In this document: piece after piece, positions 23,819-33,142 of the stretch
Layout of the letters: each line of letters opens with the position of its first letter
Position numbering within the stretch: the stretch's first letter is position 1
Source: an uncultured Bacillales bacterium
GTDB taxonomy: Bacteria; Bacillota_I; Bacilli_A; RFN20; CAG-826
Assembly: GCA_946414655.1 (NCBI GenBank)
Contig: CAMKPL010000002.1
Span: forward strand, 133,765 to 197,764
Direction: 5' to 3'
Length of the DNA stretch: 64,000 nucleotides
The notes under the pieces: model-generated
What the model saw: only the letters and a program-made list of their open reading frames with translations
Database searches by the model: none
Told to the model about the DNA's origin: nothing
Position numbers and translations under genes: made by a program

Positions 23819-26512
23819 ATGCGTCGTTTAATTGCTTATATCTCGATGGTCATCGCCATCTTAATCGGTGTTGGCGTATCTTTTGCTCCAACATTTACCA
23901 AAATGAAAGAAGGTCGTGAATTCGCTTCTGGTCGTGAAATTGTCTTTACCCTTAAGGATAAAGAAAATGAAGCTGATCCAGTAAAAGCAGATGCCGCAGA
24001 AAAAGTTGCCGATATCATGAAGGAACGTTTAGACCTCATGAATGTCGAAGACTATTCTGTTAAGATTGGCACAAACAAAGACGACCCAAGCCAAGTTTAT
24101 GCAGATACGATTTCTGTTTCTTTCTCAACCCAAGACGACACCTTATTTAACTATGTTTCTCGTTTACTTGAATTCTCCGGTAAGGATTTCTCTTTAAGAG
24201 GAAACCTTGATGAAGCCTTTGCTGAAAACGTCTTTAAAGACGTTGAAGCTTATATTTATCGTGATTCAGGCACAATTCCTTATGTTATTTTCCCTGTTTC
24301 CGATAGTGAAGCCGTCAAAACTTTCTTAAAAGTTGTTAGCGGTGAAGATGAAGAATCAGAAGATTCTGGAGCAAAAAGTCTCCTACTTCCAAAATTCGCT
24401 GAAGCTGATGAAGGCGAAGGAGAAAGCGAAGAAGAAGGCGAACAAAAGAATCCAGATGTTTTCCTTTGTGGAAACTGGGGTGATGATGACTCCATTGAAA
24501 AAGCATCTGAAAACCCATATTCAGCCGAGAAGGTTATTTGTTCTTGGAACCACGAGAACATTTGGAACCCAGATTCAAAAGAAGCCGAAACTGAATTACG
24601 TTTCCTCTGTGGATCTGCCAATGAATCCGGTGAATACGATTTAACCGCTTTAAAGAAAGCGAACCAACAAGCATCATTCCTTTTAGGAATGTTTAACGCA
24701 AAAGAATACGAAGTCGCTGTTGAAAACAAGTTTAAAGACGTCACCGTTGATGGTGGGATTAAATATAACTATCTCACTGTTGAAGCTTCTTATGAAAACC
24801 TCATTTCCTTTGAAGGAAATAGCACTAAGCTTGCTTGGTCAGCGACACTTAAAGCAACTTTAATTGGTGTCGTCATTGTTTCTTTACTTTTAGCAATGTT
24901 CTTCCGTTTACAATCTTTGGCCGCGATTGCAACAAGTTTATTAAGCTTGTTCTTCACGTATTTACTATTCTTCGCCATGACTCCAACATTTAATGTTGCA
25001 GCCATTGTTGGAGGTATTGTTGTTGCTCTCCTTTCGATTTTTGGTGAAATTGTTTATATGCATCGCTTCCGTGATGAAGTTTATAAAGGACGTAGTTTAA
25101 AGAAAGCTAATACTGAAGCATTTAGACGTTCAAACTTAATTGTTCTTGATGGAACAGTTTTAGTTGGTGCAAGTGGATTACTCTTCTACCTTCTTGGAGG
25201 TGAAGCTTTAAAATCATTCGGAGTGATCGCTTTCTTTGGTGCAATTATTTCCTTTGTTTTATTCCACATTGTCTATCGTATTTTGAATTGGCTTTTAGCC
25301 AATACAACAAATATTCAAACTAAATATAGTTTGTTTAATATTGACGAAAGCAAAGTTCCAAACATTGCTCTTGATGAAAAGCCAAACTTTGAAAGCCCAT
25401 ATGAGAAAACCGATTTTACTAAGAAACGCAAAGCGTTAGGTATTGTTGGTGGCGTCTTATTGGTTGCTTCCTTAGCTGGTATCATCACTTTTGGTGTATT
25501 AAATGGTTCACCAATTAACACCAAGAAAGCATCAGATGATCACTCAGTCATCTATACATCAATTCAAGCTGATGATGACAGATTAAATTCCACACTCTTT
25601 AGTGATGAAATCTTAGCCAAGATTGTTATCGACGGCAAAGCCGTTAACGTGAAAAATGTTTCTGTCGAATTTAAAGAAACAAAGAGCTACGATCTTGATG
25701 AAAAACTCGAAAAGACAACATATCAATATGTTGCTAAATTCGATAATGTGCTCTCCAACGATAAAGTCCAATACAAGGATGGAGAAGATTTAAAAGATGC
25801 GGAGAATTTACAAGATGCGGTAGTTAATCTTGTTGAAAAATATGAAATTATTGAAAATGGTGTCACTGCCGATGTTCGTGTCACCGGTGAAACTGTTTCA
25901 ACTCCAAATCAAGGCGAAATTGCTTTAGCAACCGGCATTACTTTAGCAGCCGCATTTGTCTACTGCGCTTTCCGCTATCGTTTATCTCGTGCTTGTAGCT
26001 TACTTGTTGTGAGCACTGGTGTGACAACCGTGACATACGGATTACTCACACTTACACGTCTAGCCACATCATCCGTGAGCGCAATTTTACTTCCAATCGT
26101 TGCCATCTCATCCTTATTAACTGCTCTCTTCTACTTAAGTAGAGAGAAAGAACTTGATAAAGAAGAAAAGGCCTATGATGCTGAAAAGCGAAGCGCACTT
26201 GTTGCTCGCGCTGCTTCACTTAGTGCATTACCAGTATTCACTTTTGCATTAATTGGTGGATACCTAGCGATTAACTTCTTTGGTTTTGGACCAGTTGAAT
26301 TAACAATCCTCTTTGGTGCAGTGATTGTCGGAACAGTATTAACTGTTCTTGCAGTGCTCTCACTTATGGGTCCACTTGCTAGTGTCTTTGATCGCTTATT
26401 CAGCAAGGTTCGCTTACCAAAATTACGCCGTCATAAAGAAAACAAACAACATTCGCTTAAACCAAAAACAAGTGAACCACAAGAAACAATCTTTATCGGT
26501 ATTAACGACTAA
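23819..26512 (+). CDS. secDF: Fused protein-export membrane protein SecDF (897 aa) with an about 180-aa acidic, Cys-containing insertion in the first periplasmic domain.
   Basis: 12 TM segments in two blocks with periplasmic domains. Conserved SecD/SecF TM motifs. Insert is 'SGEDEESEDSGAK...GEGESEEEGEQ...FLCGNWGDDD...VICSWNHE...FLCGSANESG'. Confidence 0.85.
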   Translation: MRRLIAYISMVIAILIGVGVSFAPTFTKMKEGREFASGREIVFTLKDKENEADPVKADAAEKVADIMKERLDLMNVEDYSVKIGTNKDDPSQVYADTISVSFSTQDDTLFNYVSRLLEFSGKDFSLRGNLDEAFAENVFKDVEAYIYRDSGTIPYVIFPVSDSEAVKTFLKVVSGEDEESEDSGAKSLLLPKFAEADEGEGESEEEGEQKNPDVFLCGNWGDDDSIEKASENPYSAEKVICSWNHENIWNPDSKEAETELRFLCGSANESGEYDLTALKKANQQASFLLGMFNAKEYEVAVENKFKDVTVDGGIKYNYLTVEASYENLISFEGNSTKLAWSATLKATLIGVVIVSLLLAMFFRLQSLAAIATSLLSLFFTYLLFFAMTPTFNVAAIVGGIVVALLSIFGEIVYMHRFRDEVYKGRSLKKANTEAFRRSNLIVLDGTVLVGASGLLFYLLGGEALKSFGVIAFFGAIISFVLFHIVYRILNWLLANTTNIQTKYSLFNIDESKVPNIALDEKPNFESPYEKTDFTKKRKALGIVGGVLLVASLAGIITFGVLNGSPINTKKASDDHSVIYTSIQADDDRLNSTLFSDEILAKIVIDGKAVNVKNVSVEFKETKSYDLDEKLEKTTYQYVAKFDNVLSNDKVQYKDGEDLKDAENLQDAVVNLVEKYEIIENGVTADVRVTGETVSTPNQGEIALATGITLAAAFVYCAFRYRLSRACSLLVVSTGVTTVTYGLLTLTRLATSSVSAILLPIVAISSLLTALFYLSREKELDKEEKAYDAEKRSALVARAASLSALPVFTFALIGGYLAINFFGFGPVELTILFGAVIVGTVLTVLAVLSLMGPLASVFDRLFSKVRLPKLRRHKENKQHSLKPKTSEPQETIFIGIND

Positions 26513-28158: not shown

Positions 28159-30474
28159 ATGAACACAAAGAAAATAATTCTTCCATTAGTAGCATTATTT
28201 CTTTTAGCTGGCTGTAATTCTGGTTCGAAGAAAACGAGTAAAAAATCCGGAACTAGCCAATCGCCAACACCAAGTGAACAAAAAATTCCATCTTATGATG
28301 GATTGCCTGATTATGGTGAATATGAAGGCACACCAGGAGTTGGAGAAAACCATATTCAATCTATTTCTGCATCTCCAAATAAGACGCATTTAGCCTATGT
28401 TGGTGATGTTTTTACAATCGATTCATCAGTTTCACCTTCATCGATTCCTGAAGAAGAGAAAGTATTTTCATACACATCTTCAAATGAATCTATTGCATCT
28501 GTCAAGATTCTTGATGAAGGACCTGATGGCGAGGTGACATGTTTATCTCCTGGAAAAACAACAATTACGGTTTATTCTTTTGAAAAGAGATTTAAAAGGG
28601 AAATTGTCTTAACAGTTTATGAAAAATCCGATTCAACCGATTTTTATCAAGTTGGCACGAATGCAAACAATGATAAAAAGAAATTTGGTTGGGTCGATAA
28701 AAGATATTTTGATGGCGATAGTGCTGGTGTAACTCAGCTCGGAAGAAACTTCTGGAAGTTCCTTAGATCCCAACCATCCAAGATTGCTACCTATGGTGGA
28801 GCGCTTGCTTTTGGTAGTGCAAACGCCCCAGAAGGATCATTTGAATTATCAACTGTTTTCCAATATCCTGTTGAATCTGTTATTTTAAATTGCTCCAGCG
28901 CTCCTGAAACTGATCCATCAACAGGGATTAATACATCCTACGGAAGTTCAACAATTGATTCATGGATTGGTGAAAATCATTTCGATATTACTATTAACGG
29001 AACAAAATATTCACCAACCAGTGCGATACATACTGCTCGCGGAACTGATGACGCTACTTGTAGTGATCATATCATTGATTGTAAGAATATGTCAGGTGAA
29101 TTCCATGTTAAGCTTGGTGCATCTGCTGGATATATCCGTATTAAATCAATTGTCATTAATTACGCAAATCGTGTTTTCCCAAGCGGCAATGAATCGACCG
29201 CAAACATCAATTTTGATGAAGCATCGTTTACGACCACACCTTCTTCATCATTTAAAGCCAATACCTGTAAAGACGCCAATAATCTTGTTAATGTTGCTCT
29301 TTCATATATGAAAGAAAAGGATGCTGCTGTGGAGAATCATTACGCCATGCGTGGTAACTCAACATTAATCATCACACCTGTTGATAAAACAAAAACAATT
29401 AAGAGTGTTGATGCCACATTTGCCCAATACACACTTCCAGAAGACGAAGTTGATAAAGATGGAAAAGTTATAAAAGAAGCCGGTACTGTTATTATAAATA
29501 ACATTACCACTCGTGAATCCTATACTAACGCCGACGCAATTCTCGATAATTTCCCATCAAAAGAAAACAATGTTAAACTAACAAATTTAAACCTTGGTAC
29601 AAACTGGGTAGAAATCAAAAATGCTCAAACTCAAACAAGTGGATATCTTCTAGGATTAGTTTCACTAAAAGTGGAACTTACTGATGCTGTTACACCGGCT
29701 TCCTTTAGTAAGATGGAAATTGAAGGTCATGTCTTACAAGATACGTATGATTATGAGTCAACAACATATCGTGATACATTTAAAGATCGCGGATGTGCTG
29801 TGAATGCATATTTTACGAATCCAAATCTAATGCCAATCATGCTTAACTCAAATGATTTAAACTTTAAGACAGTTAAAGATTCTCTGAGCTGGAATGCCCT
29901 TAGTTTAGGCGATACAAGTGTTAGTGGAACATCAAAATATGGTGCATTGACATATGAAGGCATTACAGTTCAACAACACGAAAATAAACAATGGAAAAAA
30001 GCGACCAGTGTGGGAGAAGGAAAATATCTAATTGTCTCACGTGAAACACATAAGTGTTTTTCTGGAATCGGAACTAATACACAGATGCAAAACGGGACAA
30101 CGGATTTTGTTGTTAGTTTGAACACCGATAATATGATTGATGGAAGTTACCAAATTGATTATTCCTATTTCACATTTACATCAACTACAAGCAATCATTT
30201 CCGTGCTGATAGTCGCTCCGAATACTTTATTAATGGATTGACAAGCAGTGGTAAGATTTCCTTCTCATATTCAAGTAATGTCTCTTTGTTCCTTGTTCAA
30301 AATGAAGGCGGATTTGATATCCATTATAGTCAAAACAAAAAACAAGACGATGGAACCTATGTTACATACGAATATGTTTTTGGTTTAACTTCATCTGGAT
30401 ATTTCTCTTTTGTTGATGTGACAAGTGAGGCAAGTCAACTTCCAGAACCTGTTGATTTCTATCGTCTTGCCTAG
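28159..30474 (+). CDS. Large surface lipoprotein (771 aa) of unknown function, with an N-terminal Big_2-like Ig domain.
   Basis: Lipobox 'FLLAGC'. Ser/Thr/Pro/Lys-rich linker. Big_2-like 'AYVGDVFTIDSSVSP...VTCLSPGKTTITVY'. Remainder has no recognisable catalytic motifs. Confidence 0.6.
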   Translation: MNTKKIILPLVALFLLAGCNSGSKKTSKKSGTSQSPTPSEQKIPSYDGLPDYGEYEGTPGVGENHIQSISASPNKTHLAYVGDVFTIDSSVSPSSIPEEEKVFSYTSSNESIASVKILDEGPDGEVTCLSPGKTTITVYSFEKRFKREIVLTVYEKSDSTDFYQVGTNANNDKKKFGWVDKRYFDGDSAGVTQLGRNFWKFLRSQPSKIATYGGALAFGSANAPEGSFELSTVFQYPVESVILNCSSAPETDPSTGINTSYGSSTIDSWIGENHFDITINGTKYSPTSAIHTARGTDDATCSDHIIDCKNMSGEFHVKLGASAGYIRIKSIVINYANRVFPSGNESTANINFDEASFTTTPSSSFKANTCKDANNLVNVALSYMKEKDAAVENHYAMRGNSTLIITPVDKTKTIKSVDATFAQYTLPEDEVDKDGKVIKEAGTVIINNITTRESYTNADAILDNFPSKENNVKLTNLNLGTNWVEIKNAQTQTSGYLLGLVSLKVELTDAVTPASFSKMEIEGHVLQDTYDYESTTYRDTFKDRGCAVNAYFTNPNLMPIMLNSNDLNFKTVKDSLSWNALSLGDTSVSGTSKYGALTYEGITVQQHENKQWKKATSVGEGKYLIVSRETHKCFSGIGTNTQMQNGTTDFVVSLNTDNMIDGSYQIDYSYFTFTSTTSNHFRADSRSEYFINGLTSSGKISFSYSSNVSLFLVQNEGGFDIHYSQNKKQDDGTYVTYEYVFGLTSSGYFSFVDVTSEASQLPEPVDFYRLA

Positions 30475-30518
30475 TCGAACAAGCAAGAATAGATTTATCT
30501 ATTAAAAATAAAATGGAT

Positions 30519-30552
30519 TTCGTTATCTACACGAAGTCCTTTTTGTTATAAT
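30519..30552 (+). terminator. Probable terminator after the 771-aa lipoprotein gene
   Basis: GGAUUUCG-uuaucuacac-CGAAGUCC (one G-U pair) followed by UUUUUG. Confidence 0.4.
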
Positions 30553-30622
30553 ATTTAATATAGAAGTGAAAAACGTACGATTTCATTTCTATTAGTAATA
30601 GAAAGGAGATTATAAATTACTT

Positions 30623-31255
30623 ATGAAAAAAACTACTTTAGTTTTACTCCCAGTCTTAGGTGCACTTCTTCTTGCTGGTTGTACAACCGCAAAGAGGCCA
30701 AACAAGAAAAAATCTTCTAGTGCTACCGTTACTTCCAAAACCACATCTCAAGGTGGTGGTGGTAACACTTCCCAAGGTGGCGGTGGCAATACCTCCCAAG
30801 GTGGTGGTGGTAACACTTCCCAAGGCGGAGGCGGCGGAGGCGGCGGTAACGGCACTGTTACCCTTAAAGCTAACGCTGATAAAAGCGCTCAAGATACAAC
30901 TTCAGTTACATTCTCAAATTCTGGTTATACTGTTCTAATTGAACAAGGTAGCAATACCCAAAACACCATTGAAGATTGTGTTAGTAAAACTGGACAAAAT
31001 TCTTTTAGAATGTATAAGGCATTTGACGTTACATTTAGCGCCCCATCTGCATTCAGCAAGCTTGAAATCCAATGGTTCAGCTTCAATGATGAGCCAACTA
31101 AATACGCATTTAATTTCGAAAATGATAATGCGACATTTGAGATGGATCAAACAAACATGAAGACAACCGTCACACTTAAATCTGCTGCAAGCAGCATTAA
31201 GTACGCCAACATCGCTCATCAAGCTCGTGTTGATACCGTTACGTTTATTGCTTAA
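30623..31255 (+). CDS. Small surface lipoprotein (210 aa) with an (S/T)QGGGGN(T) low-complexity linker; paralog of the next gene.
   Basis: Lipobox 'LLLAGC'. 'TSQGGGGNTSQGGGGNTSQGGGGNTSQGGGGGGGGNG'. C-terminal about 130-aa beta-rich domain ending '...VDTVTFIA'. Confidence 0.6.
   Translation: MKKTTLVLLPVLGALLLAGCTTAKRPNKKKSSSATVTSKTTSQGGGGNTSQGGGGNTSQGGGGNTSQGGGGGGGGNGTVTLKANADKSAQDTTSVTFSNSGYTVLIEQGSNTQNTIEDCVSKTGQNSFRMYKAFDVTFSAPSAFSKLEIQWFSFNDEPTKYAFNFENDNATFEMDQTNMKTTVTLKSAASSIKYANIAHQARVDTVTFIA
30745..30860 (+). repeat. Tandem near-identical 21-24-bp coding repeats (ACnTCcCAAGGtGGtGGtGGtAAc x4-5) encoding the TSQGGGGN linker.
   Basis: Direct reading of the sequence. The same repeat DNA recurs at 31500-31565 in the adjacent paralog. 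Confidence 0.7.
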
Positions 31256-31300
31256 TATCAGGGAAGACTAATAAGTTAATTTCTATTACAACCAAGAGAG

Positions 31301-31340
31301 GATTATAAATCCTCTCTTTTTCTTTTTCTTCAAATAATAT
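31301..31340 (+). terminator. Rho-independent terminator after the 210-aa lipoprotein gene
   Basis: AGAGAGGAT-tataa-ATCCTCTCT followed by TTTTTCTTTTTCTT. Confidence 0.6.
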
Positions 31341-31369
31341 AAAATATTATGTGAAAGAAGGGTTTTAAT

Positions 31370-33094
31370 ATGAATAAAAAATTCCTTATTCTTCCAATCG
31401 TCTCGGCTCTTTTGTTAGCGGGATGTACACTTGGAGGAAAAAAATCTAACAGGAAGAAAAAATCTTCTAGTGCAGTGATTACTTCTTCTGTAACCTCAGG
31501 AGGAAACACTTCTCAAGGTGGTGGTGGTAACACCTCGCAAGGTGGCGGTGGCAATACCTCTCAACCAAGCGGAAGTAGTTCGACACCAGCTCCAACAGAT
31601 TGGTCCTCTGCTGAAGCATCTGCTTTTAGTACAGCGTTCCACGGTATTGTCCCAGCTTATTTTTCTGTTGGGCTTGATTCAGAAGAATCTCAAGCAGAGT
31701 ATGGTTATTTCGTTTCAAAAGCAACAACCGAAGCAATTGCTGATGCCTACTATAATGGCCTCGATTCAACATGGGAAATCGCCTATGATGCAGATGGATA
31801 CGAAGAGAAGCATAAGACTCCTACTGATAACACGGGTTATGTTGTTTGCTATGTAGGTGGTGATCTTAGCGGAAACATTTTTGTTGTTTGGCAATGGTAT
31901 TCTCCAGTCACTTCACTTTCATTGAGTGGAACTCAAAATACTGAATTTGATGTTGGTGACACATTTAGTTACGAAGGCTTAGTTGTCACAGTTAACTTTA
32001 AAGATGGTGACACCATGTCATTTGATTCTGTAGAAGACATTGAATACTATTTCACCGTTACATCTCCAGACATGACTACAGCCGGTCAAAAAACAATTAC
32101 TGTTTCATATTCTGTAGATGAAACAACGACGGTCACAGCAAGCTACACAATTAATGTTAAATCTTCTGTGAAATATACTGTTTCATTTGATGGTGGTGAA
32201 GGAACAGGAACCATGTCCGATGTTGAAGCATCCGAGGGAAGTTATACTCTTCCAGGTTCAACATTTGTTGCCCCAGAAGGCAAAGCCTTTGCCGGTTGGA
32301 AAGCCAATAATACTGGTGACTTAATCCCAGCTGGTGGAACATATAACTTAACTGCTGCTGTGACATTCTATGCTCAATGGGCAAACGAATATACCGTTTC
32401 ATTCTCCGCAGGAGAAGGTAGTGGCACAATGGATCCAGTCAAAGTTGGAGAAGGTGGTAAGATTAGCGAACCAACCTGCACATTTACTGCTCCAACTGGA
32501 AAAGAATTTGATAAATGGGTCATTGGAACCGAAGCTGTTACATTCCCATATACTGTTACAGGCAATGTTACCTTAACCGCAACATGGAAAGAAAAAGCAA
32601 CACCTGTTCAATCAGTCAAATATACGATTGATAATCCAGCCGATCAATATGGTAAGAAATTCTCTGAATTAACTGCAGACCAAATTCTTTCCGGCTTTGT
32701 CTCAAACGGAGCAAATGTCATTACCGAGGTCAAAGATTATAATGCTAACGTTTATTTCGGCGGAAACGGTGGTTCTGGTGATACAGCATTCACCATTGTC
32801 GATGCATTTAAACTTGGTAAGAGTAAAGCAAAAGGCGAGGCAACAGTTGTCATTGGCTCTGGATATTCATTCTCTAAATTAGTTTTAACAGTTGTTGGAC
32901 AACGTGATGATGGTTCGTTAACCGTTAATGGCGTTGAAAAAGCTGTTACAGCTAAAGCTGGTCCAGGTGATCTTACTACACAAACTCTTGAGTTTGATAT
33001 TGCTAGTGGCACAACTGAATTTGTGATGTCATCTAAAGATGATTCAACCGGAAACTTTAGTATTTACATCTTAAGTCTTGAATTTGTTGCCTAA
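31370..33094 (+). CDS. Surface lipoprotein (574 aa) with Gly-rich linker, Listeria-Bacteroides-type (Flg_new) repeats, and a C-terminal domain shared with the 210-aa paralog.
   Basis: Lipobox 'LLLAGC'. 'TSQGGGGNTSQGGGGNTSQ'. Two about 65-aa repeats 'YTVSFDGGEGTGTM...FAGWKAN...TFYAQWA' and 'YTVSFSAGEGSGTM...FDKWVIG...TLTATWK'. C-terminus ends '...IYILSLEFVA'. Confidence 0.65.
   Translation: MNKKFLILPIVSALLLAGCTLGGKKSNRKKKSSSAVITSSVTSGGNTSQGGGGNTSQGGGGNTSQPSGSSSTPAPTDWSSAEASAFSTAFHGIVPAYFSVGLDSEESQAEYGYFVSKATTEAIADAYYNGLDSTWEIAYDADGYEEKHKTPTDNTGYVVCYVGGDLSGNIFVVWQWYSPVTSLSLSGTQNTEFDVGDTFSYEGLVVTVNFKDGDTMSFDSVEDIEYYFTVTSPDMTTAGQKTITVSYSVDETTTVTASYTINVKSSVKYTVSFDGGEGTGTMSDVEASEGSYTLPGSTFVAPEGKAFAGWKANNTGDLIPAGGTYNLTAAVTFYAQWANEYTVSFSAGEGSGTMDPVKVGEGGKISEPTCTFTAPTGKEFDKWVIGTEAVTFPYTVTGNVTLTATWKEKATPVQSVKYTIDNPADQYGKKFSELTADQILSGFVSNGANVITEVKDYNANVYFGGNGGSGDTAFTIVDAFKLGKSKAKGEATVVIGSGYSFSKLVLTVVGQRDDGSLTVNGVEKAVTAKAGPGDLTTQTLEFDIASGTTEFVMSSKDDSTGNFSIYILSLEFVA
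31500..31565 (+). repeat. Second copy of the (ACTTCNCAAGGTGGNGGTGGNAA)n linker repeat DNA, about 95% identical over about 55 bp to 30766-30830.
   Basis: caaggtggtggtggtaacacctcgcaaggtggcggtggcaatacctctcaa compared with caaggtggtggtggtaacacttcccaaggtggcggtggcaatacctcccaa. Confidence 0.7.
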
Positions 33095-33107
33095 TTAATG
33101 AACATTT

Positions 33108-33142
33108 GATTAGAGGCTAGTTCATCTGGCCTCTTTTCTTAT
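33108..33142 (+). terminator. Rho-independent terminator after the lipoprotein cluster
   Basis: AGAGGC-tagttcatctg-GCCTCT followed by TTTCTT. Followed by an extended -10 'TGgTATAAT' promoter for relA. Confidence 0.55.

What the first reader, a model, noticed from the sequence alone, without database searches (positions are those of the whole stretch)
30745..31565. Near-identical Gly-rich repeat DNA shared by two adjacent lipoprotein genes: substrate for slipped-strand length variation and inter-gene recombination
The 21-24-bp unit ACTTCCCAAGGTGGTGGTGGTAAC, encoding TSQGGGGN, is tandemly repeated 4-5 times in gene 30623-31255. It is repeated about 2.5 times in gene 31370-33094, with about 95% DNA identity over about 55 bp between genes.

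A tandem in-frame repeat of a multiple-of-3 unit predicts linker-length variation by slippage. About 740 bp separate the two repeat blocks in direct orientation. Homologous recombination between them would delete the intervening DNA and create a chimeric lipoprotein, joining the first gene's signal peptide and linker to the second gene's body. This is a classic antigenic-variation mechanism.
Basis: partly seen in the sequence, partly recalled or inferred. Interest (0 to 1): 0.55.

Follow-up and report, generated by a model that had tools for sequence, protein, structure and literature searches.

The report
Repeat-built tethers of two variable lipoproteins
Two neighbouring surface-lipoprotein genes of an uncultured gut or rumen bacterium share a short glycine-rich repeat that encodes a floppy tether; strain comparisons show these tethers change length and mark where gene segments are swapped, a familiar pattern for bacterial surface proteins.

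Summary
Gene A (30623-31255) carries three 24-nt TSQGGGGN units plus a fourth with a poly-Gly tract. Gene B (31370-33094) carries 2.5 units. The blocks are 53/57 nt identical, in frame, at an offset of 765 nt.

Both repeats encode the disordered tether between the lipid-anchored cysteine and folded, carbohydrate-binding-like ectodomains. The genes lie in a three-gene lipoprotein island between recJ and relA in an uncultured Bacilli MAG lineage.

- Among 22 close relatives, 24 of 25 indel columns fall in the tethers.
- Two assemblies of a sister species are otherwise identical over 4.6 kb and differ by exactly one 24-nt unit.
- Within the species, identity drops from about 96% to 45-58% exactly at the 3' edge of A's Gly tract and inside B's repeat.
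- Only this lineage's gene B carries A-type units, which suggests short-tract conversion.

Not supported:
- No A-B deletion chimera was seen, and the longest exact match is only 23 nt.
- The 24-nt unit count is the same in all five gene A alleles of this species.
- Nothing shows rapid within-clone antigenic variation.

This is a new member of a known kind and is moderately interesting.

The parts
28159..30474 (+). lipoU: the first lipoprotein gene of the island (771 aa, lipobox LLAGC, Big_2 domain). It has its own terminator at 30515-30539.
   Evidence: It is only 52% identical in the same-species strain L006.
30623..31255 (+). Gene A: a 210-aa lipoprotein made of signal peptide, lipobox (Cys20, 30680-30682), disordered tether and a beta-sandwich domain.
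   Evidence: The family is P0121-P0130.
30683..30741 (+). K/S/T-rich box after the lipid-anchored Cys of gene A. It contains the 20-nt exact match AAGAAAAAATCTTCTAGTGC (30704-30723), also present in gene B.
30742..30825 (+). 24-nt tandem array of gene A (TSQGGGGN, 3.5 copies, 83% matches). It holds an internal 29-nt exact direct repeat at 48-nt spacing (30749 and 30797).
30824..30846 (+). GGCGGAGGC 9-nt array (poly-Gly, G8). This is the tract that is actually length-polymorphic in this species (G8, G7, G5). Its 3' end is the breakpoint of the divergent A-domain allele of strain L012.
30847..31252 (+). [not shown]
31294..31318 (+). Intrinsic-terminator-like hairpin plus T run after gene A, so A and B look like separate transcription units.
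31370..33094 (+). Gene B: a 574-aa lipoprotein (Cys19, 31424-31426). In order it has a tether, an alpha/beta N-domain, Big_3, two InlB-B-repeat-like units and a C-terminal beta-sandwich.
31454..31473 (+). 20-nt exact copy of the gene A K/S-box sequence.
31505..31564 (+). 24-nt tandem array of gene B (2.5 copies), 53/57 nt identical to 30743-30799. Identity to other strains breaks down inside it, at about 31523.
31565..32170 (+). Hypervariable N-domain plus Big_3 segment of gene B, 56-58% identical to same-species strains L007, L012 and L006.
32171..32655 (+). Conserved middle of gene B (InlB-B-repeat-like units), 85-98% identical between strains.
32656..33094 (+). C-terminal domain of gene B. 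A second allele type (72-73% identity) occurs in all other strains compared, including L001.

Best explanation
The Gly-rich 24-nt repeats encode the intrinsically disordered tether that links the lipid-anchored N-terminal cysteine to the folded ectodomains. These ectodomains look like carbohydrate-binding or Ig-like modules. The two genes are adjacent, appear to be separately transcribed, and share a homologous N-terminal module: signal peptide, K/S box and tether. They sit in a hypervariable three-gene lipoprotein island between recJ and relA in an uncultured gut/rumen Bacilli lineage (NCBI name 'Bacillales/Caryophanales bacterium UBA4278').

Shown:
1. The tether is low-complexity and free to change length. 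Unit gain and loss, as expected from replication slippage or unequal exchange, has produced length polymorphism between strains.
2. The conserved N-terminal module ending in the repeat forms the 5' boundary of allelic replacement of the downstream domain-coding segments between strains.

Inferred:
3. The window lineage's gene B picked up about 55 nt of A-type units by short-tract gene conversion from gene A, or from an imported allele.
4. The biological payoff is diversification of exposed ligand-binding domains and of their reach from the membrane, on a population time scale rather than as a programmed switch.
For: - Disorder: AF2 gives pLDDT below 50 for residues 11-25 and 27-73 of A and 1-74 of B. 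Confident folded domains follow.
- Length polymorphism: 24 of 25 gap columns in four clusters of close relatives (22 proteins) lie in the tether. L017 and L014 show 0 mismatches over the 744-column gene alignment and over 4.6 kb, and differ by exactly one 24-nt unit. L006 gene B has two extra 15-nt TSQGG units, and L006 gene A lacks one 9-nt unit.
- Breakpoints: against same-species strains (recJ 95-96.5%), signal plus K-box segments stay at 95-100%. The A domain falls to 45% from position 30847, and the B N-domain falls to 56-58% from about 31523. P0127/L012 has an N-terminus that differs at a single residue (Ala23Thr) from the window's gene A over residues 1-75, including all of the repeats, followed by a domain only 32% identical.
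- A-to-B transfer: the window's B tether scores 45-46 against every A allele of the species, whereas other strains' B tethers score 14-17. Codon-level identity exceeds what the shared peptide predicts.
- Co-variation: A and B tethers are both Gly-rich in one clade and both Pro/Thr-rich in another. U and C tethers do not co-vary.
- Separate terminators follow U, A and B.
Against: - Everything is comparative. No read-level or experimental evidence shows ongoing slippage or recombination in this strain.
- In this species the 24-nt unit count of gene A is invariant in five alleles. Its units are only 83% alike, so slippage may be slow here.
- Copy-number differences come from short-read assemblies. 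Collapse is unlikely for arrays of 96 nt or less, but it is not excluded.
- The codon-identity test is only P = 0.014 when the linker's own codon usage is used.
- Co-variation rests on about three clades and could reflect shared selection rather than conversion.
- The surface exposure and the cell-envelope type of the organism are unknown.
Confidence: 0.7

Rival explanations
1. One reading: the repeats are an active antigenic-variation device. Frequent slipped-strand changes in unit number occur within a clone. RecA-mediated crossover between the two blocks deletes about 765 bp and yields a chimeric lipoprotein, with the A signal peptide and tether joined to the B body.
For: - The blocks are direct, in the same reading frame (offsets 765 and 717, both multiples of 3). 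A modelled crossover gives an open 568-aa chimera.
- Unit-number polymorphism exists in relatives.
- Surface lipoproteins with repeat-based size variation are known, for example the Ureaplasma MBA (PMC3637154).
Against: - No chimera was found. All nine gene B relatives and their cluster members start with the B-type signal MNKK[FHL]LILP.
- All proteins with the A-type signal are 272 aa or shorter.
- The longest exact homology is 23 nt. From general knowledge, this is at the lower limit for RecA-dependent exchange.
- The three Logan assemblies carrying this gene A allele (L001-L003) are identical to the window across both blocks.
- The unit count of A is constant in five alleles.
- The unit is a multiple of 3, so there is no ON/OFF switching.
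Confidence: 0.1
2. There has been no exchange between A and B. The two genes are old tandem paralogues whose N-terminal modules are kept similar by selection for the same tether peptide and by codon bias. The similarity is ancestral or convergent.
For: - The signal peptide, K/S box and tether architecture is shared by A, B and even other lipoproteins of the lineage.
- With the linker's own codon usage, the excess DNA identity is only modest (P = 0.014).
Against: - Same-species strains L007, L012 and L006 have a different unit in gene B (15-nt TSQGG) with low similarity to A (scores 14-17 against 45-46). The A-type units in B are therefore derived in the window lineage, not ancestral.
- The alternating synonymous pattern GGTGGTGGTGGTAAC / GGTGGCGGTGGCAAT is shared in the same order.
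Confidence: 0.15
3. Assembly artefact: reads from gene A were mis-joined into gene B in a metagenome-assembled genome.
For: The window probably derives from a MAG contig. The exact proteins are recorded on a 267-kb NCBI contig.
Against: - Three further assemblies (SRR11485369, SRR11485372 and SRR11485376) give 100% identical DNA across both genes.
- The B block has four private substitutions relative to A.
- The arrays are shorter than a typical read.
Confidence: 0.02

Closest known systems
Size-variable surface lipoproteins of Mollicutes: Ureaplasma multiple banded antigen (PMC3637154), and Mycoplasma Vlp/Vsa (from my own knowledge)
   Same: A lipoprotein with a conserved N-terminal anchor and an in-frame tandem repeat whose unit number differs between isolates. 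Slipped-strand mispairing is the accepted mechanism.
   Different: - In those proteins the repeats form most of the exposed C-terminal region and are the antigen itself, with many units and documented rapid within-strain variation.
- Here the repeat is a short N-terminal tether (2.5-4 units) ahead of folded domains.
- No sequence homology was found.
- Within-clone variation is untested.
- The organism is an uncultured Bacilli MAG that uses the standard genetic code.
Intrinsically disordered N-terminal linkers of bacterial lipoproteins (El Rayes et al., bioRxiv 10.1101/2021.01.05.425367)
   Same: A disordered segment directly after the lipidated Cys that spaces the folded domain from the membrane. 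AF2 predicts the same here.
   Different: That work concerns E. coli outer-membrane lipoproteins and Lol sorting. Here the linkers are repeat-built, much more Gly-rich, polymorphic in length and shared at the DNA level between neighbouring genes.
Pneumococcal PspA and PspC: mosaic surface-protein genes that share a proline-rich low-complexity domain (PMC3018475, PMC8437407)
   Same: Two different surface proteins of one genome carry a closely related low-complexity spacer. Alleles form deeply divergent clades that arose by recombination. Conserved segments flank hypervariable domains.
   Different: Those are choline-binding proteins, not lipoproteins. Their spacer is Pro-rich and internal. The genes are not adjacent. 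A role of the spacer as a recombination junction is an analogy here, not a tested equivalence.
InlB B-repeat (PF09479 / TIGR02543) and Big_3 cell-surface proteins of Bacillota
   Same: The middle of gene B is homologous to proteins annotated this way (for example P0016 at E 7e-66), and gene B has a Big_3 hit.
   Different: Anchoring is by lipid rather than LPXTG, S-layer or GW modules. PF09479 itself was not reported for the window protein in my Pfam scan.

Membership tests
Bacterial lipoproteins (Lgt/Lsp substrates) | N-terminal signal peptide ending in a lipobox [LVI][ASTVI][GAS]C | tested here: met
   A has ...ALLLAGC (Cys20) and B has ...ALLLAGC (Cys19). Neither A nor B hit LPAM_1 in the Pfam scan; only lipoU did, below cut-off (17.6 vs 20 bits). 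N-termini align with lipoprotein models in NCBIfam below cut-off.
Bacterial lipoproteins (Lgt/Lsp substrates) | Actual lipidation and cleavage at the Cys | not testable with these tools
   This needs biochemistry, or at least the presence of lgt and lsp in the genome. Neither was seen in the 64-kb window.
Size-variable repeat lipoproteins (MBA / Vlp / Vsa type) | In-frame tandem repeats whose number differs between isolates | tested here: met
   L017 vs L014 differ by one 24-nt unit. L006 vs L007/L012 differ by two 15-nt units and by a 9-nt unit. 24 of 25 indel columns lie in the tether. In the window's own species only the poly-Gly tract varies.
Size-variable repeat lipoproteins (MBA / Vlp / Vsa type) | Repeats make up the bulk of the exposed C-terminal region and are the variable antigen | tested here: not met
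   The repeats are an N-terminal tether of about 35-55 residues followed by folded domains of 135 and about 500 residues.
Size-variable repeat lipoproteins (MBA / Vlp / Vsa type) | High-frequency variation within a clonal population | not testable with these tools
   No reads or cultures are available. The three Logan assemblies carrying this gene A allele (L001-L003) are identical to the window across both repeat blocks.
Simple-sequence contingency loci (phase variation by frameshift) | A repeat unit that is not a multiple of 3, or a promoter-spacer repeat, giving ON/OFF switching | tested here: not met
   The units are 24, 15 and 9 nt, all multiples of 3 and all within coding sequence.
Pfam GRP (PF07172, plant glycine-rich protein family) | Score at or above the gathering threshold | tested here: not met
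   Gene A scores 29.5 bits against a cut-off of 30, and gene B scores 15.6 bits. These are compositional matches to signal peptide plus Gly-rich stretch.
InlB B-repeat-containing surface proteins (PF09479) | Match to the B-repeat model | tested here: inconclusive
   Pfam reported only Big_3 for gene B. However, phmmer links residues of about 265-410 to many PF09479 proteins.
Carbohydrate-binding modules (beta-sandwich) | Fold match and a conserved ligand site | tested here: inconclusive
   [not shown]

The most novel reading that the evidence does not exclude
The conserved module of signal peptide, K/S box and repeat tether acts as a portable recombination handle. It lets an uncultured commensal Bacilli lineage swap whole ectodomain cassettes between strains, and tether units between neighbouring genes. 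This would produce concerted evolution of the tethers (Gly-rich or Pro/Thr-rich in both A and B of a genome) and a combinatorial repertoire of CBM-like surface lipoproteins at one fixed chromosomal island between recJ and relA.
Probability: 0.35. Interest if true: 0.55.

Novelty: new member of a known kind. Interest (0 to 1): 0.38.

Why it matters
This gives a concrete, sequence-level example, in an uncultured gut/rumen Bacilli lineage, of how surface lipoproteins diversify. Their repeat-built tethers change length, and conserved N-terminal modules flank domain segments that are exchanged between strains.

For MAG-based strain tracking it flags a hypervariable island between recJ and relA, at which three of the Logan assemblies examined end (L001-L003). 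It also supplies candidate glycan-binding surface proteins whose alleles may reflect adaptation to host, diet or phage pressure.

It does not reveal a new mechanism. Repeat slippage and mosaic surface-protein genes are well established.

Tried and rejected
- Exact look-up of the gene B protein found nothing on record.
- The first metagenome scan failed. The repeat run gave only three loci, too few for a population survey.
- A protein search with the tether peptide alone returned nothing, probably because of composition filtering. I could not establish how many other lipoproteins of the lineage use TSQGGGGN tethers. This also used the last protein search.
- BLASTP of the A domain against the B C-terminal domain showed no sequence similarity. 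I dropped the idea that they are recent duplicates.
- tblastn of alternative alleles (P0127, P0131, P0002, P0008 and P0009 domains) against the window found only the expressed genes. No silent cassettes lie within these 64 kb, so a donor-cassette system of the vlsE or pilS type is not supported.
- The promoter scan was not above chance and is not used as evidence.
- A literature search for 'UBA4278' found nothing.
- Pfam annotation of 20 flanking ORFs showed only housekeeping genes and gave no information on the cell-envelope type.
Full report
**1. Observation**

The window holds two adjacent plus-strand ORFs exactly as stated: gene A at 30623-31255 (210 aa) and gene B at 31370-33094 (574 aa). 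Both start with a lipoprotein-type signal peptide ending in LLAGC.

Tandem Repeats Finder reports three arrays:
- A period-24 array at 30742-30825 (3.5 copies).
- An abutting 9-nt GGCGGAGGC array at 30824-30846.
- A second period-24 array at 31505-31564 (2.5 copies).

In protein terms, A reads TSQGGGGN x3 followed by TSQ-G8-N. B reads GGN-(TSQGGGGN)x2-TSQ.

The two blocks are 92% identical over 61 nt and 53/57 nt identical over the shared 19 codons. The longest exact runs are two 23-mers. A further 20-nt exact match lies in the lysine/serine box just upstream in both genes.

All offsets (765, 717, 750) are multiples of three, so a crossover would stay in frame. A modelled crossover gives an open 568-aa chimera.

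The motif does not occur by chance: 4 matches in the window against 0 in 100 shuffles. The DNA identity also exceeds what the shared peptide would give, which is 43.7 +/- 2.7 of 57 with genome codon usage (P = 2.7e-4) and 48.2 +/- 2.0 with the linker's own codon usage (P = 0.014).

Three independent assemblies reproduce the whole region base for base.

**2. What the repeats encode**

AlphaFold2 models place both repeats inside long disordered N-terminal segments. These cover residues 11-25 and 27-73 of A and residues 1-74 of B (pLDDT below 50). Confident folded domains follow.

Gene B has, in order:
- an alpha/beta N-domain;
- a Big_3 Ig-like domain;
- two units homologous to InlB-B-repeat proteins;
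- a C-terminal beta-sandwich; the whole-protein model gives single-domain Foldseek hits to CBM35 and CBM16 structures, which I attribute to this domain without having checked the aligned residues.

The repeats are therefore the flexible tether between the lipid anchor and the exposed, probably glycan-binding, modules.

Terminator-like hairpins follow each of the three lipoprotein genes of the island, at 30515-30539, 31294-31318 and 33112-33134. This suggests separate transcription units.

**3. Context and organism**

The island (lipoU, A, B) lies between recJ and relA/spoT in an otherwise housekeeping region.

The same arrangement is found in metagenome-assembled genomes labelled 'Bacillales bacterium UBA4278', 'Bacilli bacterium RGIG3288' (goat reticulum) and other uncultured Bacillales. 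NCBI taxonomy lists UBA4278 as an unclassified Caryophanales. Some species carry a fourth lipoprotein gene.

**4. Test of the length-variation prediction**

I aligned four clusters of close relatives (22 proteins). Of 25 gap columns, 24 fall in the tether.

At the DNA level:
- Strain L006 has two extra 15-nt TSQGG units in gene B and lacks one 9-nt GGCGGAGGC unit in gene A, relative to L007 and L012.
- Two assemblies of a sister species from different sources, L014 (ENA) and L017 (JGI), show no mismatch in the 744-column alignment of the A-type gene or across 4.6 kb of the locus. They differ only by one perfect 24-nt unit, ACATCGCAAGGTGGTGGTGGAAAC (two copies against three).

This is what slippage or unequal exchange predicts.

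In the window's own species, however, all five gene A alleles keep the same number of 24-nt units. Only the terminal poly-Gly run varies (G8, G7, G5). This fits the fact that the window's units are only 83% alike. The longest internal exact repeat is 29 nt at 48-nt spacing.

**5. Test of the recombination prediction**

I compared the window with same-species strains, where recJ is 95-96.5% identical. The signal-peptide and K-box segments stay at 95-100%, but identity collapses in three places:
- Against L012, it falls to 45% from the last Gly codon of gene A (30847) to just past its stop codon.
- Against L007, L012 and L006, it falls to 56-58% from inside the gene B repeat (about 31523) to about 32170.
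- Against all strains, it falls to 72-73% in the gene B C-terminal domain.

The gene A protein of L012 (P0127) differs from the window's gene A at a single residue (Ala23Thr) over residues 1-75, including every repeat. It then continues with a domain only 32% identical.

L001 is 99.7-100% identical to the window over about 4 kb, from lipoU to the B N-domain. It is 96.5% identical in recJ and 72% in the B C-domain, which indicates a recently transferred block.

Both repeat blocks thus coincide with 5' breakpoints of allelic replacement.

**6. Exchange between A and B**

The tether of the window's gene B scores 45-46 in local alignment against every gene A allele of the species. The gene B tethers of the other strains are built from 15-nt units and score only 14-17.

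A-type units in gene B are therefore a derived feature of the window lineage. Short-tract gene conversion from A, or from an imported allele, explains this best.

Across clades, the A and B tethers share their composition. They are both Gly-rich (28-50% Gly, 0-8% Pro) in the window's species, or both Pro/Thr-rich (2-10% Gly, 22-28% Pro) in clade 3. In the second clade (L008, L014) gene B is intermediate, at 12% Gly and 12% Pro. The lipoU and lipoC tethers do not follow this pattern. This hints at concerted evolution, although it rests on only about three clades.

**7. What is not supported**

- No A-B deletion chimera was found. All gene B relatives and their cluster members keep the B-type signal peptide. 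Every protein with an A-type signal peptide is 272 aa or shorter.
- Exact homology between the blocks is only 23 nt.
- No silent cassettes exist in the window.
- The repeat units are multiples of three, so they cannot switch expression on and off.
- Nothing here measures within-clone variation, so 'classic antigenic variation' remains an analogy.

**8. Comparison with known systems**

The behaviour resembles three known cases:
- Size-variable repeat lipoproteins such as the Ureaplasma multiple banded antigen (PMC3637154).
- The disordered N-terminal linkers of E. coli lipoproteins (bioRxiv 10.1101/2021.01.05.425367).
- The mosaic pneumococcal PspA and PspC genes, which share a low-complexity proline-rich spacer (PMC3018475, PMC8437407).

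It differs from the first case in three ways. The repeat is a short N-terminal tether rather than the bulk of the antigen. No homology was detected. The Pfam GRP hit is compositional and below threshold.

**9. Verdict**

The feature is real and is correctly read as repeat-encoded linker DNA shared by two lipoprotein genes. The specific deletion-chimera and antigenic-variation claims are not. I rate it a new member of a known kind, of moderate interest.

Noticed in passing
window 32656-33094 (gene B C-terminal domain); L001 6190-6646; ends of L002 and L003: The C-terminal domain of gene B exists as two allele types, about 72% identical, within one species. Two Logan contigs end exactly at this boundary (residue 432), which suggests co-existing strains broke the assembly there.
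   Followed up: partly
L001 1693-5700 vs window 28159-32170: L001 is 99.7-100% identical to the window over about 4 kb (lipoU to the gene B N-domain). It is 96.5% identical in recJ and 72% in the B C-domain, which looks like a recently transferred block.
   Followed up: partly
window 28159-30474 (lipoU): The first lipoprotein of the island (771 aa, Big_2) is only 52% identical in the same-species strain L006 and has a 30-nt indel in L007. It is hypervariable too, but its tether does not share the Gly repeat.
   Followed up: no
window 23819-26512: An 897-aa ORF with an N-terminal hydrophobic segment lies just upstream of recJ. An 895-900-aa ORF occupies the same position in the related loci that extend that far (L004, L005, L007, L010, L011, L012, L014). 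It has no Pfam match at E <= 1e-5.
   Followed up: no
L009 2675-3370; L010 12058-12753: Species with Pro/Thr-rich tethers carry a fourth lipoprotein gene (231 aa) between gene B and relA.
   Followed up: no
P0008, P0009 (gene B relatives): Two gene B relatives keep the N-terminal two-thirds of the protein but end in C-terminal domains that are unrelated to the window's and to each other. This is further cassette-like replacement.
   Followed up: no
L014 5001-5720 and L017 541-1284: In a sister species the A-position gene combines perfect TSQGGGGN units with a third, different ectodomain type (TSFVLTAGTHTVTLDF...). In L010 and L011 the same ectodomain type carries a Pro/Thr-rich tether, so tether type and domain type assort independently.
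   Followed up: partly
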